Source: Leucoraja ocellata
Taxonomy: Eukaryota
Direction of reading: 5' to 3'
Length of the DNA: 64,000 nucleotides
Assembly (NCBI GenBank): GCA_036785375.1
Contig: JAWMAR010000894.1
Span: 1 to 64,000 of the forward strand
Below are positions 4,794-31,700 of the stretch, one piece after another. The position numbers were made by a program. How positions within the stretch are numbered: position 1 is the stretch's first letter; each line of letters begins with the position of its first letter.

Positions 4794-7700
4794 TTGGGCA
4801 CGGATTAATCGGATCGCGCACGGCCACCGAGGTTCATCCGTTCCCCAAAGCCACTGAGCTCGATAGTCAGCGGCTTAAACACATTAGTCTGAAGAAGGGT
4901 CTCGATCCGAAACGTCACCCACTCCTTCTCTCCAGTGATGCTGCCTGTCCCGCAGAGTGACTCCACCATTTTGTGTCTACCTTCGGTTTAAACCAGCATC
5001 TGCAGTTCCTTCATGCAGCTGAAACCAAGGTTTCTTTGGTGGAAGACGACTAACACGCGGGATACGGACGAGGACATTTCGACCAGCTAGCGAGTGAGAT
5101 GAAGAGAAACAGGATGATTACAAACGGCCTCTAGAACGACATAGGTTACTATAAAGCTGGGAAAGGAAAGACGAACGGACACATGACATGAGCAGCAGCG
5201 AGACTGCTAATCCCAAATGGGAACATAGGTTAAAGTTATATCAGAACGCGGAGCACATGGTACAAAGCTTCAACACGTTGAACAAGGTGAAAGGATTTAC
5301 CAGGAATTCCAAACGCCGCCAGAATCGGATAGGCAATCTCCTTCATGTACAGAATCGGAGCCCGCTCCATTCTGGAAGTATTTCAGCAGCATTATCGGTT
5401 GACACAATGGAGCAAGAATAGTGGTACCGATCCTCAGTAATACTCGCTGAAATCCACTGCTGGGAACGAGCCATTACATTAGTGACAGGTTCTTTAACAA
5501 ACATGTTTTTTTCCCCACACAATTAATTTAATTTCAACAATCTCACAGAGGAGATGGGGGGGGGGGGGGGGGGGGGCGATGAATTCAGTGCAACGAGTAG
5601 TGTAGGTTACAGGCGCATTTCTGCTACTTTTCTGAATCCAAAATTCAGTGTAATGGACTTCTGCTGTGGCGGGAATCGCTTCATTCACAGGGCAACGGGC
5701 CTGTTGGAGATTTAGGGATTGAACACATGGAAGCCTAAAATAAAAAATATCCGAAGCAGAGACGGGTAAAAGCTCTGAAATGTAAATTGCTAAATGGAAA
5801 GGTTATAAAGTGAAAGGAGGAAAGTTTAAATTAGATTTTCCAGTACAGTTATTCTTTATGTGCCTGGATGCGCGCCTTGGGCAGTTGGTAGATGTAGATC
5901 CCATGGCAACATTTAGGAGGGATTTAACCGCACGTGTACAGGCAGACAATGGAGGTGCACACATCGTATGCACCCAGATAAGACCAGAGGCGCTGACATC
6001 ATAATCGGCGCAGACATGGTGGGCGGTATTTCTTCCAACCCTGAACTGATTAGGTTCACGATGGGCCAGCAAACCGAAGGACTTGAGGGGAGCTTATGTC
6101 TGTGGCATGAATGTAAACCAGGCCAAAGATGTTCAGACAGATGTGGGGAAAACCGTGCACATATTTGGAATTGCACGCGCATGGCCACAAATGGAAAATG
6201 AGGCTGGAGAACCGAACTGAAGTTTGCTATGAGGAGGACGTCGATGGTGCTTCAGGGATGAAATGCCACTATGGTCTATAATCCAGATGAAATGGATCTG
6301 CGAAGGATTGGTGTTTAATGGCAAATAGGCGCAATATTACGAGTAGCCTTTTAAAGTATTTTGACGACCTCAGTGTGTTGACCTGTTTCGTATGTTGGTG
6401 GTTTGAGGAAACGGGAGTCTCTCCCACTGTTGATGCCGCAAATGCATCAAAGAGCACACGACGAGCAGACAGTTCATCAACTTGTGGCTGAAGCAATGAA
6501 GCAAACTCTAACACGTTATCTCCCAGAATTAACGTGGAAACTATTGAACGGGTTAAAGTAAGAATATATCCGTTAGCAGCCCGCCAATGGTGGACTTGGC
6601 ACCCACCCTGCCTCTTGAGAGAAAGGAGAGAGCGTGGTCTTCGACGGGAGACAAATGTCGGAGAGAGTGGACGAGCGCTCCGGCTGGAAGGGGAAGGAGG
6701 GGGTGTGGGGTTAGGGGTTCTAAAGAGGACGCGAGTCTCTGACGGCTCCCACTGTTCGAATGCCGATACTTTTCAACAAACATTAAAGACGATTTGCTCA
6801 ACAGGTCGTTGGTAGACGGAATATTTGACTTCAATCTGTGCATCCTGATGTCTGCCTGCATTGAGCTGAGGCTGGTGACTGAGAACTGGATTTAAGGCTC
6901 CTGTAGTCAAAACGTTCCCTGCTCTGGGGCTCCGGTCTCGGTGCCTGATCAGAACACATCTGCTGGGCGAGGCGGCCATTGACAGGAAGGTGGTGAGCAT
7001 CTCCCAAGGTATTGCGCCTGTACAGGGTTCAAACGCTTGATCTCGTCCTCCTCTCCAAATGTTTCTGCGAATCGTCAACATAGCTTGAAGACCGCAGCCG
7101 TGACGCGACACCACTTCCTGTGGCTTGATGTCAAGTAGTCAACCCGCAGCAGAAAACAAAAGCGACCAAAACTCAACCATTGACGGGAAATGAAGCCAAC
7201 ATTGGTAACAGGTCGGCCCGAGAAGATATCTCAGCGACAGAGAGAAGATAAGATCTAACCTTTACGGAAAACGTCGGTCTCCAAAAAACGGCTCCATGTT
7301 AAACTGCCTACAGACCGCGTGTGGAGATGAAACTGAGATAAACAAATGCACCAGAGGCCAATAACTAACCCTGGCATCTCCATGCGAAACGCTGTCGTGC
7401 ACTTTGATCTTCTTCACGCACTCCATGCACCGGTCCCACATACCCCAGCCTGTATATTCTGACCGCTGTAAAATAACTACCCGATATTTCGGAGAGTACA
7501 AATCAGCCAGATATCGCCTCCTGCACCCGCCGCTCCATTGAACTAATAATTTGTTTACTCATTTCCATCCAAATCCAGAACAAAAGGCAATTAGGAAAGG
7601 GAAAATTGATTATGAAACAAAACTGACAGGGAACATAAAAACTGAACGCAAAACTTTTTATAGATATGTGAAGAGAAAACAATTAGTTAAAACAAATGTA

Positions 7701-28700: not shown

Positions 28701-31700
28701 TTCTATAAGATTTGTCAGACATGATTTACCTTTCATGAATCTATGCTGACGTTGTCCAATGATTTCACCACTTTCCAAATGTGCTGCTATCCCATCTTTC
28801 ATAACTGATTATAGCAGTTTCCCCACTGCCTATGGTAGACTAACTGGTCTGTGATTCCCCGTTTTCTTCTCCCTCCCTTTTTAAAAAGTGGGGTTACATT
28901 AGCTACCCTCCAATCTTCAGGAACTACTCCAGAACCCAAAGTGTTTTGAAAAATTATCACTAATGCATCCACTATTTCTGGAGCTACTTCCTTAAGTACT
29001 CTGGGATGCAGCCTATCTGGCCTTGGGGATGCATCTGCCTTTAATCCATTCAATTTACCTAACACCACTTCCTGGCTAACCTGGATTTCACTCAGTTCCT
29101 CCATCTCATTTGACCCGCGATCCCCTGCTATTTCCGGTAGATTATTTATGTCTTCCTTAGTGAAGACAGAACCAAAGTAGTTATTGAATTGGCCTGCCAT
29201 GTCCTTGTTCCCCATGACCAATTCACCTGTTTCTGACTGCAAAGGACCTACATTTGTTTTAACTAATTGTTTTCTCTTCACATATCTATAAAAAGTTTTG
29301 CGTTCAGTTTTTATGTTCCCTGTCAGTTTTGTTTCATAATCAATTTTCCCTTTCCTAATTGCCTTTTGTTCTGGATTTGGATGGAAATGAGTAAACGAAT
29401 TATTAGTTCAATGGAGCGGCGGGTGCAGGAGGCGATATCTGGCTGATTTGTACTCTCCGAAATATCGGGTAGTTATTTTACAGCGGTCAGAATATACAGG
29501 CTGGGGTATGTGGGACCGGTGCATGGAGTGCGTGAAGAAGATCAAAGTGCACGACAGCGTTTCGCATGGAGATGCCAGGGTTAGTTATTGGCCTCTGGTG
29601 CATTTGTTTATCTCAGTTTCATCTCCACATGCTTAACACGCGGTCTGTAGGCAGTTTAACATGGAGCCGTTTTTTGGAGACCGACGTTTTCCGTAAAGGT
29701 TAGATCTTATCTTCTCTCTGTCGCTGAGATATCTTCCCTGGCCGACCTGTTACCAATGTTGGCTTCATTTCCAGTCAATGGTTGAGTTTTGGTCGCTTTT
29801 GTTTTCTGCTGCGGGTTGACTACTTGACATCAAGCCACAGGAAGTGGTGTCGCGTCACGGCTGCGGTCTTCAAGCTATGTTGACGATTCGCAGAAACATT
29901 TGGAGAGGAGGACGAGATCAAGCGTTTGAACCCTGAACCGCCGTCAGAGACTCGCGTCCTCTTTAGAACCCCTAACCCCACACCCCCTCCTTCCCCTTCC
30001 AGCCGGAGCGCTCGTCCACTCTCTCCGACATTTCTCTCCCGTCGAAGACCACGCTCTCTCCTTTCTCTCAAGAGGCAGGGTGGGTGCCAAGTCCACCATT
30101 GGCGGGCTGCTAACGGATATATTCTTACTTTAACCCGTTCAATAGTTTCCACGTTAATTCTGGGAGATAACGTGTTAGAGTTTGCTTCATTGCTTCAGCC
30201 ACAAGTTGATGAACTGTCTGCTCGTCGTGTGCTCTTTGATACATTTGCGGCATCAACAGTGGGAGAGACTCCCGTTTTCTCAAACCACCAACATACGAAA
30301 CAGGTCAACACACTGAGGTCGTCAAAATACTTTAAAAGGCTACTCGTAATATTGCGCCTATTTGCCATTAAACACCAATCCTTCGCAGATCCATTTCATC
30401 TGGATTATAGACCATAGTGGCATTTCATCCCTGAAGCACCATCGACGTCCTCCTCATAGCAAACTTCAGTTCGGTTCTCCAGCCTCATTTTCCATTTGTG
30501 GCCATGCGCGTGCAATTCCAAATATGTGCACGGTTTTCCCCACATCTGTCTGAACATCTTTGGCCTGGTTTACATTCATGCCACAGACATAAGCTCCCCT
30601 CAAGTCCTTCGGTTTGCTGGCCCATCGTGAACCTAATCAGTTCAGGGTTGGAAGAAATACCGCCCACCATGTCTGCGCCGATTATGATGTCAGCGCCTCT
30701 GGTCTTATCTGGGTGCATACGATGTGTGCACCTCCATTGTCTGCCTGTACACGTGCGGTTAAATCCCTCCTAAATGTTGCCATGGGATCTACATCTACCA
30801 ACTGCCCAAGGCGCGCATCCAGGCACATAAAGAATAACTGTACTGGAAAATCTAATTTAAACTTTCCTCCTTTCACTTTATAACCTTTCCATTTAGCAAT
30901 TTACATTTCATCATATTGCTTATGCATAAAATGCCCTGGCCTTCTCCTTCATTATACTTGCCTGGAAACGTCCATGGCTTTCTTGTTTAAATTATTTCCT
31001 GCTTTCTTTATGTTCGGCTGCCTACCGTTTCCTAACTTTACATTTGGTTCTTCTTTGATTAAGGTTACAATATTTCTTATCATCCAAGGTTTACAATCTC
31101 GCCATCATGTCGTCATTCCAACTAGGCTCTAAACTCTGATTATCTGGCTTTCAAAGTATTCCCACCAATTAGACGAGGATACATTAAAAAGGCCAGTTCA
31201 ACCGGTGAAGCAGCGGTAGAGTTGCTGCCTGGCAGCGCTTGTAGCGCAGGAGTCCCGGGTTCGACCCCGAATACAGGTGCTGTCCATACGAGGTTTGTAC
31301 TTTCTCCCCGTGGCCGCTTCTCGGAAAACTTCAGTTTCCTCCCACGCTCCAGAAGCGCACAGTCTTGTCGGTTGAGCGGCTTGGTCCACGTGTATATTAT
31401 CCTTAATATGTGTAGGATAGTGTTAATGTGTGGGATCACTCGTTAATGCGGCGTTAGTGGGATGAAGGGCCTGTTTCAATGCTGAATCTCTAAACTAAAC
31501 TAAATCTAAACCTAATTTTTCCAGTGCTTGTCTGATAATAATGTGATCAGACTTCCACCACGTTAGTTTTTTTTTTAAATCAATATCCATTTTTTATTAC
31601 GTATCAAATTATGATCAATGTCCGCAATATGCAAAACAATTAAAATTCGATCACCAGATCATACGAATTCCTAAAATATTTTAGTGCTGCCCTATCCCTC

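What the first reader, a model, noticed from the sequence alone, without database searches (positions are those of the whole stretch)
5776..30910. 25-kb palindrome (10.9/10.5 kb arms, 3.7 kb spacer) enclosing and truncating a GPCR gene
Seen: 5776-16674 is the near-perfect reverse complement of 20392-30910. The spacer holds almost exactly one GPR139-like gene, and the right arm starts where that gene's C-terminal tail stops (RFRQEL*). The arms differ by indels in both directions, which argues against a simple fold-back read. Inference: the left arm is ancestral, because ORF 16625-16927 runs open across its inner edge and weak CR1 similarity continues past its outer edge. The right arm would be a young inverted copy in a multigene-family region.
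[Added by the scan's program, not by the reader: the finding's places include an assembly gap (unread letters, written N; its length is only estimated) at 12690 to 12846, 12912 to 13042, 24231 to 24381. Whether the letters on both sides are continuous or in frame is not known: test that first.]
Basis: partly seen in the sequence, partly recalled or inferred. Interest (0 to 1): 0.75.

Follow-up and report, generated by a model that had tools for sequence, protein, structure and literature searches.

The report
Young inverted duplication in skate DNA
A stretch of about 10.9 kb of repeat-filled skate DNA has been copied in reverse next to a decayed receptor gene, and the repair scar at the new junction shows how, but the structure is an ordinary kind and still needs confirming with sequencing reads.

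Summary
5776-16674 and 20392-30910 are reverse complements: 10,158 identical columns, 37 mismatches (0.36%) and 13 indels, around a 3,717-nt spacer. The window is skate DNA.

The spacer carries a two-exon GPR139-like gene that is decayed. It lacks the 13-39-residue tail that 39 of its 41 closest homologues have.

A hAT transposase relic runs collinearly across the left inner edge and is cut off at the right inner edge. At that edge the left copy is therefore the source.

The new junction holds a 14-nt insert copied from the far end of the arm, with 2-3-nt microhomology on each side. This is the scar of fold-back or template-switch repair. The spacer size fits published fold-back duplications.

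All four junctions lie in gap-free sequence. The N runs sit inside the arms in low-complexity DNA and keep collinearity to within 1 nt.

Read depth and spanning reads could not be checked, so a haplotype misassembly remains possible (about 20%).

Verdict: a new member of a known kind, of modest interest.

The parts
5776..16674 (.). Left arm (10,899 nt), the source copy at its inner end. It is a mosaic of LINE fragments, a PIF1-helicase (Helitron-like) fragment, minisatellites and the C-terminal part of a hAT relic. It holds no intact gene.
   Evidence: The longest stop-to-stop frame without X is 202 aa. PIF1 at 13569-13811, E 3.2e-23. Tandem arrays.
16675..20391 (.). Single-copy spacer (3,717 nt): the N-terminal part of the hAT relic, then the GPR139-like pseudogene.
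   Evidence: Sensitive blastn finds only short dispersed repeats elsewhere in the window.
20392..30910 (.). Right arm (10,519 nt), the inverted copy.
15984..17332 (-). hAT (DUF659-type) transposase relic with frameshifts and stops. It is collinear across the left inner junction 16674|16675.
   Evidence: tblastn with P0063-P0067. Precomputed Pfam PF04937/PF05699 on the hits.
20398..21082 (+). The right-arm copy of the hAT relic. It holds only the C-terminal part (P0064 residues 308-443) and is cut at the arm edge.
17637..17799 (+). GPR139-like exon 1. A stop and a 1-nt shift lie between 17708 and 17725. A second Met at 17725 may be the true start.
19550..20382 (+). GPR139-like exon 2 (7tm_1). 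It has a 1-nt frameshift beside a G run near 20215 and a 3-codon deletion. It ends ...RFRQEL then TAG, without the family's tail.
   Evidence: Pfam 7tm_1, E 4.8e-13..
20378..20391 (+). A 14-nt insert at the new junction (TTTAGCAATTTACA). It is identical to the outer end of the arm. The match can be read as 17 nt, because the next three T are shared with the start of the right arm.
   Evidence: 3 matches in the window, 0.01 expected, 0 of 100 shuffles with 3..
30892..30905 (+). The same 14-mer, 5 nt from the outer end of the right arm.
5781..5794 (-). The same 14-mer, 5 nt from the outer end of the left arm.
12690..13042 (.). Two N runs (12690-12846 and 12912-13042) with a 65-nt island between them, inside the left arm.
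24231..24381 (.). N run inside the right arm, mirroring 12690-12846.
6746..7017 (.). A 272-nt piece present only in the left arm. It has no target-site duplication. Whether it is a deletion in the right arm or an insertion in the left is undecided.
844..3885 (.). An older partial copy (91.5-96% identity) of left-arm 11689-14772, in direct orientation and bounded by different repeats on both sides. It is most simply another copy of the same Helitron-like repeat, not part of the palindrome.
   Evidence: PIF1 at 2668-3063, E 3.2e-26.
5296..5437 (-). An orphan exon-1-like piece of a GPR139-like paralogue, 340 nt outside the left arm and pointing away from it. It is 88% identical in DNA to the spacer's exon 1.

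Best explanation
This is a real inverted segmental duplication (a palindrome with a spacer) in a repeat-rich intergenic stretch of a skate GPR139-like gene cluster.

An ancestral segment, the left arm, lay next to a hAT relic and a GPR139-like gene. A break or collapsed fork in the 3' end of that gene was repaired by microhomology-primed copying of the upstream segment in reverse. This is the fold-back or MMBIR type of serial template switching.

The new junction reads: gene, then 12-14 nt copied from the far (outer) end of the segment, then the whole segment from its inner end to its outer end, then unrelated flank. Each switch uses 2-4 nt of microhomology.

The gene lost at least its last ~21 codons. 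It was probably already a pseudogene. The structure has no evident function. Its likely consequences are structural: possible inversion of the spacer and arm-to-arm gene conversion.

Shown: the inverted repeat, the native left inner junction, the truncated gene and the templated insert. Inferred: the repair mechanism, the order of the switches, and that the assembly reflects the genome.
For: (1) Arms are 99.64% identical over 10,195 compared columns, with 21 transitions, 16 transversions and 9 CpG transitions. This spectrum fits real mutations, not consensus noise or reuse of one contig.

(2) The hAT relic is collinear across 16674|16675 and truncated at 20392. The two inner junctions are therefore one old and one new.

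(3) The gene ends at ...RFRQEL plus a stop. 39 of the 41 closest homologues carry 13-39 more residues after that motif (tails listed).

(4) The 14-mer at the new junction occurs only three times in 64 kb, against 0.01 expected. The other two copies sit 5 nt from the two outer arm ends. An overlap or k-mer join of unrelated contigs would not create such an insert.

(5) The spacer of 3,717 nt, 3 nt of T/A microhomology and inserted bases at the junction match sequenced human fold-back inverted duplications. Those have spacers of 766-70,466 bp (median 3,428), 2-8 bp microhomology in 13 of 21 junctions and insertions in 5 of 21 (PMC3907307, passages read).

(6) No N lies between the inner arm halves or at any junction. 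Gaps between the copies are one of the published marks of false duplications (PMC9516828, passages read).

(7) The outer flanks are unrelated to each other, so the two outer arm parts are not simply two alleles of one place.
Against: No reads, depth, k-mer or optical data could be consulted. No vertebrate genome collection was on hand for the orthologous locus.

Arm divergence of 0.36% lies in the range of heterozygosity reported for three vertebrates (0.22-0.95%; PMC9516828, table passage). Sequence difference alone therefore cannot tell paralogues from alleles.

Both arms are broken by N runs at mirrored places. The central N-free stretch 13043-24230 has inverted-repeat ends, so its orientation and its link to the outer arm parts rest on scaffolding that I cannot see.

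Which outer flank is native is unresolved.

In the strict same-strand fold-back reading, the first 14-nt template lies 14.6 kb from the break. That needs very long resection or a template in trans.

The 1-nt frameshift in the gene lies beside a G run and could be a sequencing error.
Confidence: 0.65

Rival explanations
1. Assembly artefact. The two arms are the two haplotypes of one locus (a false heterotype duplication), with one haplotig placed inverted, or the joins at 20392 and 30910 are chimeric.
For: Divergence of 0.36% with indels in tandem arrays looks like allelic variation and falls within published heterozygosities. Both arms contain N runs at mirrored positions, so scaffolding decisions are involved. 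There is no independent support from reads.
Against: All four junctions lie in N-free sequence, and there is no gap between the inner copies. The outer flanks differ, so at least two separate chimeric joins would be needed. The join at 20378-20394 shares only 14-17 nt with the other arm end and carries a templated-insert scar typical of repair. The gene beside it shows decay consistent with a long-standing broken copy.
Confidence: 0.2
2. Real but old. The palindrome formed long ago, and the arms are kept 99.6% alike by arm-to-arm gene conversion, as in mammalian sex-chromosome palindromes.
For: The truncated gene differs at 4 of 41 columns that are at least 95% conserved among 62 homologues (TM5 P to N, TM6 W to R). 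It also has a frameshift and a 3-codon deletion. That is many times more change per site than the roughly 0.18% per arm. The innermost 1,579 nt of the arms have no mismatch (P 0.0027 for that edge).
Against: The gene may simply have been dead before the duplication. A mismatch-free run that long somewhere in the arms occurs in 7.5% of simulations. Large arm-specific indels (272, 75, 53, 22 nt) have not been erased. There is no other species to compare.
Confidence: 0.12
3. Insertion of a mobile or retro-copied 10.5-kb unit into the gene, with the 14-17-nt direct repeat at 20378-20394 and 30892-30908 as a target-site duplication.
For: The right arm is flanked by a perfect 14-nt (up to 17-nt) direct repeat.
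Against: The left arm also ends with this repeat plus 2 more matching bases. If the left arm is the source, as the hAT continuity demands, it should not carry the target's sequence. If the right arm were the source, the hAT continuity at 16674|16675 would be unexplained. The unit is a mosaic of unrelated repeat fragments without terminal repeats, poly-A or an intact transposase. A profile of the family's tail finds no gene remainder after the right arm (best E 0.38, elsewhere in the window).
Confidence: 0.02
4. A single chimeric fold-back molecule or read (a missed adapter, or strand switching during amplification) was carried into the consensus.
For: Such artefacts give inverted copies, sometimes with a loop and microhomology. 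This is recalled knowledge, not from a call.
Against: Two strands of one molecule would be identical. Here there are 37 mismatches and 13 indels in both directions, up to 272 nt. The right arm also continues into 33 kb of other sequence.
Confidence: 0.01

Closest known systems
Fold-back inverted duplications with a single-copy spacer (Hermetz et al. 2014, PLoS Genet, PMC3907307; passages read)
   Same: The order is non-inverted copy, single-copy spacer, inverted copy. The spacer of 3.7 kb compares with a published median of 3.4 kb. There is a few nt of inverted microhomology and inserted bases at the spacer-to-inversion junction, with loss of sequence distal to the break.
   Different: The published cases are megabase germline duplications next to terminal deletions, translocations or rings, formed through a dicentric. 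Here the arm is only 10.9 kb and the chromosome continues normally after it. The insert's template lies at the far end of the copied segment.
Replication-based template-switch rearrangements (FoSTeS/MMBIR; DUP-TRP/INV-DUP; titles and abstracts seen in the listing, e.g. PMC4352052 and PMC11293582; the mechanism's details are recalled)
   Same: Several switches with 2-4 nt microhomology, and a short templated stretch before a long processive copy in inverted orientation.
   Different: There is no triplicated segment and no pre-existing inverted low-copy repeats at the breakpoints. This is an evolutionary event in a fish, not a clinical one.
Large palindromes of mammalian X and Y chromosomes (abstracts seen in the listing: 10.1101/800185, PMC8327919, PMC3723533)
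   Same: Arms over 10 kb, over 99% identity, inverted, with a spacer.
   Different: Those arms carry testis-expressed gene families, reach hundreds of kb and are conserved between species by gene conversion and selection. Here the arms carry only repeat debris, and the chromosome and age are unknown.
False heterotype duplications in assemblies (Ko et al. 2022, Genome Biol, PMC9516828; passages read)
   Same: Two near-identical copies on one scaffold, with divergence in the range of heterozygosity and N runs nearby.
   Different: There is no gap between the inner copies or at any junction. The flanks are distinct, and the junction carries a repair-type scar. Depth, read pairs and k-mers were not testable.

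Membership tests
Large palindrome (inverted segmental duplication) | Two arms in inverted orientation on one molecule, separated by a spacer | tested here: met
   The spacer is 16675-20391.
Large palindrome (inverted segmental duplication) | Arms over 10 kb and over 99% identical (definition in the abstract of 10.1101/800185, listing) | tested here: met
   Arms of 10,899 and 10,519 nt. 10,158 of 10,195 compared columns are identical (99.64%). Indels are not counted.
Large palindrome (inverted segmental duplication) | Arm-to-arm gene conversion | tested here: inconclusive
   The mismatch-free inner 1,579 nt gives P 0.0027 at that edge but 0.075 anywhere. Gene decay exceeds arm divergence. There are no population or cross-species data.
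Large palindrome (inverted segmental duplication) | Physically present in the genome (spanning reads, normal depth) | not testable with these tools
   No reads were available. There is only indirect support from N-free junctions.
Fold-back / template-switch inverted duplication | A single-copy spacer of roughly 0.8-70 kb between the direct and inverted copies | tested here: met
   3,717 nt, against 766-70,466 bp with a median of 3,428.
Fold-back / template-switch inverted duplication | Short inverted microhomology or inserted bases at the spacer-to-inversion junction | tested here: met
   A 14-nt templated insert. TTT is shared between the insert's template and the start of the arm, and TT is shared with the gene's last codon.
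Fold-back / template-switch inverted duplication | Loss of sequence distal to the break | tested here: inconclusive
   The gene tail is missing and is not found after the right arm or anywhere in the window. The size of the loss is unknown.
False heterotype duplication (assembly error) | An assembly gap between the two copies | tested here: not met
   There is no N in 13043-24230. The gaps lie within the arms.
False heterotype duplication (assembly error) | Half read depth, discordant read pairs, haplotype-specific k-mers | not testable with these tools
   Criteria from PMC9516828. No read data were available.
GPR139-like rhodopsin-family receptor gene | 7tm_1 domain and closest relatives named GPR139 | tested here: met
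   Pfam 7tm_1, E 4.8e-13. 58 of the 62 hits carry a GPR139 name. The best is 89% identical, from Leucoraja erinacea.
GPR139-like rhodopsin-family receptor gene | An intact reading frame with the family's C-terminal tail (a functional member) | tested here: not met
   A frameshift near 20215, a 3-codon deletion, no tail, and 4 of 41 near-invariant residues changed.
Transposon insertion with target-site duplication | The flanking repeat derives from the target and is absent from the source copy | tested here: not met
   The source (left) arm ends with the same 14-mer plus further matching bases.

The most novel reading that the evidence does not exclude
The palindrome is not young. It is an old structure in a cartilaginous fish whose arms are kept near-identical by arm-to-arm gene conversion. 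It sits in a receptor-gene cluster a few tens of kb from MHC class I-like and PRY-SPRY exons. That would extend palindrome maintenance, known mainly from mammalian sex chromosomes, to an elasmobranch. It would also suggest that fold-back duplications drive gene birth and death in the batoid GPR139-like family.
Probability: 0.12. Interest if true: 0.55.

Novelty: new member of a known kind. Interest (0 to 1): 0.3.

Why it matters
For annotation: the GPR139-like copy in the spacer is a truncated, decayed pseudogene and should not be counted as a family member. The arms add no genes, only duplicated repeat debris.

For assembly quality control: this locus is a clear test case. Four named junctions can be checked with a handful of long reads or PCRs.

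For genome biology: if confirmed, it is a cleanly resolved germline fold-back or template-switch duplication in a non-mammalian vertebrate. The source copy, the truncated target and a templated junction insert are all readable. Inverted arms of this size can also flip the spacer and destabilise the neighbourhood.

Tried and rejected
(1) Gene tail after the right arm. By eye, the frame crossing 30892-30940 looked a little like the family's tail. That would have made the 14-mer native to the gene and the right arm a clean insertion. A profile built from 39 tails and searched against 3,047 six-frame segments of the window did not list that segment among the 25 best. The best hit anywhere was E 0.38, at 61177-61206. 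The idea was dropped.

(2) LINE (CR1-like) continuity across the outer edge. tblastn with four LINE frames taken from the window, at E up to 10, gave no hit overlapping 5776 or 30910.

(3) Homology between the outer flanks, or between the flanks and the spacer. Sensitive blastn found only short dispersed repeats and the exon-1 paralogue.

(4) Tandem-duplication idea. The older copy at 844-3885 lies about one arm length upstream of its match. However, 3886-5775 has no similarity to 14773-16674, so the offset is taken as coincidence.

(5) Target-site-duplication model: rejected.

(6) Pfam on 10 short frames of the arms and spacer named only 7tm_1 and PIF1. The hAT pieces needed full-length homologues, and Pfam was again silent on two of them at E up to 1.

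(7) Rfam at gathering thresholds and ARAGORN over the window: 0 matches each.

(8) Literature on GPR139 in cartilaginous fishes. None of the 12 listed papers contains the word GPR139. That search asked for any 3 of 5 terms, so it is not a test of absence.

(9) Not run because the tools do not reach it. The orthologous locus in other skates could not be checked, since genome contigs holds only bacteria and archaea.

(10) The exons of the gene were searched and aligned one by one.

(11) Supplementary figures and tables of PMC3907307, which hold the junction sequences, were not seen.

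
Full report
**What is there**

The window holds a 25.1-kb palindrome. The left arm is 5776-16674 (10,899 nt), the spacer is 16675-20391 (3,717 nt) and the right arm is 20392-30910 (10,519 nt). 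Three methods agree on this:
- The repeat finder tiles the arms with inverted pairs of 95-100% complementarity.
- blastn of the window on itself gives four collinear blocks of 97.7-99.7% identity.
- A MAFFT alignment of the left arm with the reverse complement of the right arm has 10,158 identical columns, 37 mismatches (0.36%), four left-only indels (272, 75, 53, 1 nt) and nine right-only indels (22, 9 and seven of 1-2 nt).

The 75- and 53-nt differences lie in minisatellites. The mismatches are 21 transitions and 16 transversions, and 9 are transitions at CpG. This looks like real vertebrate mutation, not reuse of one contig or consensus noise.

**The gaps, tested first**

The window has nine N runs. 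Three lie in the finding, all inside the arms and next to TG-rich low-complexity arrays.

Collinearity with the partner arm is kept across them. 12689 pairs with 24382 and 13043 with 24027, so 353 positions on the left face 354 on the right. The gap of the older partial copy at 1214-1349 keeps register within 8 nt (143 against 135 positions).

The stated lengths are therefore mutually consistent. Continuity across unread letters cannot be proven, and I did not fill or infer any N. No reading frame that matters crosses a gap.

Every junction of the structure lies in N-free sequence:
- The outer left junction lies in 1350-12689.
- Both inner junctions and the whole spacer lie in 13043-24230.
- The outer right junction lies in 24382-46939.

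One caveat follows. The central stretch has inverted-repeat ends, so its orientation and its attachment to the outer arm parts depend on scaffolding that I cannot inspect.

**Organism and gene**

The longest frame of the spacer (19493-20218) is a rhodopsin-family receptor (Pfam 7tm_1, E 4.8e-13). It found 62 proteins at E up to 0.001 among 679 candidates. 58 of them are named GPR139 by their sources, and all the named ones come from sharks, rays and skates. The best hits are Leucoraja erinacea (89% identity) and Amblyraja radiata (82%). The window is therefore skate DNA, not human.

tblastn with five homologues and the full alignment to P0001 show a two-exon gene:
- Exon 1 lies at 17637-17799. 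A stop and a 1-nt shift separate 17708 from 17725. A second Met at 17725 may be the true start.
- Exon 2 runs from about 19550 to 20379.
- My reading puts an AG at 19549-19550, and the likely donor near 17795 is GC.

The gene is damaged in several ways:
- Exon 2 has a 1-nt frameshift beside a G run near 20215 and a 3-codon deletion.
- It differs from the family at 4 of 41 columns that are at least 95% conserved in 62 homologues. These include the TM5 proline and the TM6 tryptophan.
- It stops after ...RFRQEL (TAG at 20380-20382), whereas 39 of the 41 closest homologues continue for 13-39 residues.

The gene is thus truncated exactly at the right arm and is a pseudogene. I searched and aligned the exons separately and made no joined model.

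**Which arm is the original**

A search with 16628-16960(-) found five proteins, with precomputed Pfam PF04937 and in two cases PF05699.

tblastn with them gave these placements for P0064:
- Residues 73-307 fall on 17305-16667.
- Residues 308-372 fall on 16668-16492.
- Residues 372-443 fall on 16197-15984.

The relic therefore runs residue after residue through 16674|16675. The right arm has only residues 308-443 (20398-21082), starting at its edge.

So the left inner junction is old and the right inner junction is new. The right arm is the copy, at least at this end.

For the outer end I could not decide.

**The scar at the new junction**

The last 14 nt of the spacer (20378-20391) are identical to a 14-mer that lies 5 nt from the outer end of each arm (30892-30905, and 5781-5794 on the other strand). 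This motif occurs three times in the window. Chance predicts 0.01 occurrences, and none of 100 shuffles gave three (sequences).

The match can be read as 17 nt, because the next three T are also the first bases of the right arm. Its first two T can also belong to the gene's last sense codon.

The junction therefore reads: gene, then 12-14 nt copied from the far end of the duplicated segment, then the duplicated segment from its inner end onward. There are 2-3 nt of microhomology at each switch.

Both the short copy and the long copy end within 5 nt of the same position, 5776. I infer that a DNA end, or a repeated invasion site, lay there.

I tested and dropped the alternative that the motif is native to the gene's tail. 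I also rejected a target-site duplication. The source arm itself ends with the motif plus two more matching bases, which a target-derived repeat should not do.

**Mechanism**

The best fit is a break or collapsed fork in the 3' end of the gene. It would have been repaired by microhomology-primed copying of upstream sequence in inverted orientation. This is the fold-back or MMBIR type, with one abortive short copy before the processive one.

Sequenced human fold-back inverted duplications show the same anatomy (PMC3907307, passages read):
- A single-copy spacer of 766-70,466 bp, with a median of 3,428 bp.
- 2-8 bp of inverted microhomology in 13 of 21 junctions.
- Inserted bases in 5 of 21 junctions.

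Here the spacer is 3,717 nt. The difference is scale and outcome. Here the arm is 10.9 kb and the chromosome continues normally, while the published cases are megabase duplications with terminal deletions.

The direction of synthesis cannot be told from the sequence. Reading from the right flank, the steps would be: invasion at 5776, copying to 16674, re-invasion next to the first site for 14 nt, then capture by the gene-side end. This explains why the insert's template sits at the arm's far end. It also avoids the 14.6-kb resection that a strict same-strand fold-back would need. These steps are inference.

**Age**

Arm divergence is 0.36%, about 0.18% per arm. The pseudogene's decay is many times greater per site: 4 changes in 41 near-invariant codons, plus a frameshift and a deletion.

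Either the gene was dead well before the duplication, which I prefer, or the arms are being homogenised by gene conversion. The innermost 1,579 nt of the arms carry no mismatch. That is unlikely at this particular edge (P 0.0027) but not as the longest clean run anywhere (P 0.075). The large arm-specific indels argue against strong homogenisation.

**Is it an assembly artefact?**

Published marks of false duplications are half depth, a gap between the copies, discordant read pairs and haplotype-specific k-mers (PMC9516828, passages read). Only the gap criterion can be tested here, and it is not met for the inner copies.

The distinct outer flanks and the repair-type scar also speak for a real structure. 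On the other side, 0.36% lies within the heterozygosity range given in that paper (0.22-0.95%), and the arms do contain gaps. I put the artefact at about 0.2. A single fold-back read is excluded by the 37 mismatches and 13 indels.

**Content of the arms and surroundings**

The arms hold no intact gene. The longest clean frame is 202 aa, a LINE fragment. They consist of LINE pieces, a PIF1-helicase fragment, minisatellites and the hAT C-terminus. There is no Rfam family and no tRNA in the window.

An older copy of arm positions 11689-14772 lies at 844-3885, at 91.5-96% identity. It is bounded by other repeats and is best taken as another copy of a Helitron-like repeat.

340 nt outside the left arm lies an orphan exon-1-like piece of a paralogue, on the other strand (5296-5437). 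It is 88% identical in DNA to the spacer's exon 1, and the same short repeat lies in the adjoining intron. The left arm thus lies between two diverging receptor-gene relics. A third relic is at 35575-35932.

**Verdict**

- Observation: confirmed.
- Interpretation: partly supported. The polarity at the inner edge and the truncation are right. The outer-edge argument is not, and youth and physical reality remain untested.
- Kind: an inverted segmental duplication with a fold-back or template-switch scar, a new member of a known kind.
- Interest: 0.3.

It was not possible to look at reads or at other skate genomes.

Noticed in passing
window 46900-54300: MHC class I-like pieces lie in a gap-rich stretch with extreme C/T skew. 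Two starts of an alpha-1-like exon are at about 49430-49510 and 50130-50200 (Pfam MHC_I, E 0.019 and 0.0045, both below the curated cut-off). An Ig C1-set exon is at 53531-53830 (E 2.9e-7). Five N runs fall between 46940 and 51196.
   Followed up: partly
window 46587-46930 and 53912-54252: A second, older inverted pair (86% identity over about 345 nt) brackets the MHC-like stretch. Frames across it encode near-identical Thr-rich segments on opposite strands.
   Followed up: no
window 56535-57101 (-): An open PRY-SPRY (B30.2) exon of a TRIM/butyrophilin-like gene (Pfam PRY E 5.1e-19, SPRY E 3.8e-21).
   Followed up: partly
window 39676-44360: An LTR retrotransposon with reverse transcriptase, RNase H and an integrase zinc-binding domain. 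It is flanked by 203-nt direct repeats at 39676-39878 and 44159-44360 that are 98% identical.
   Followed up: partly
window 35575-35932 (+): The C-terminal half of another, more distant GPR139-like paralogue (43-47% identity to P0001) with a frameshift. This adds to the picture of a decaying gene cluster.
   Followed up: no
window 18045-18278; copies at 4888-5012, 36073-36198, 36917-37106, 55471-55600: A short repeat that matches itself in both orientations (MITE-like) lies in the intron of the GPR139-like gene and recurs at four other places, 72-86% alike.
   Followed up: no
window 17795 and 5296: Both exon-1 copies of the GPR139-like genes seem to end at a GC rather than a GT donor. This is my reading and has not been checked against transcripts.
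   Followed up: no
window 1206-1350, 12689-13043, 24027-24382: The lengths of the N runs agree with the paralogous copies to within 1-8 nt. That is tighter than rough gap estimates usually are. They may stand for unread low-complexity bases of well-constrained length.
   Followed up: partly
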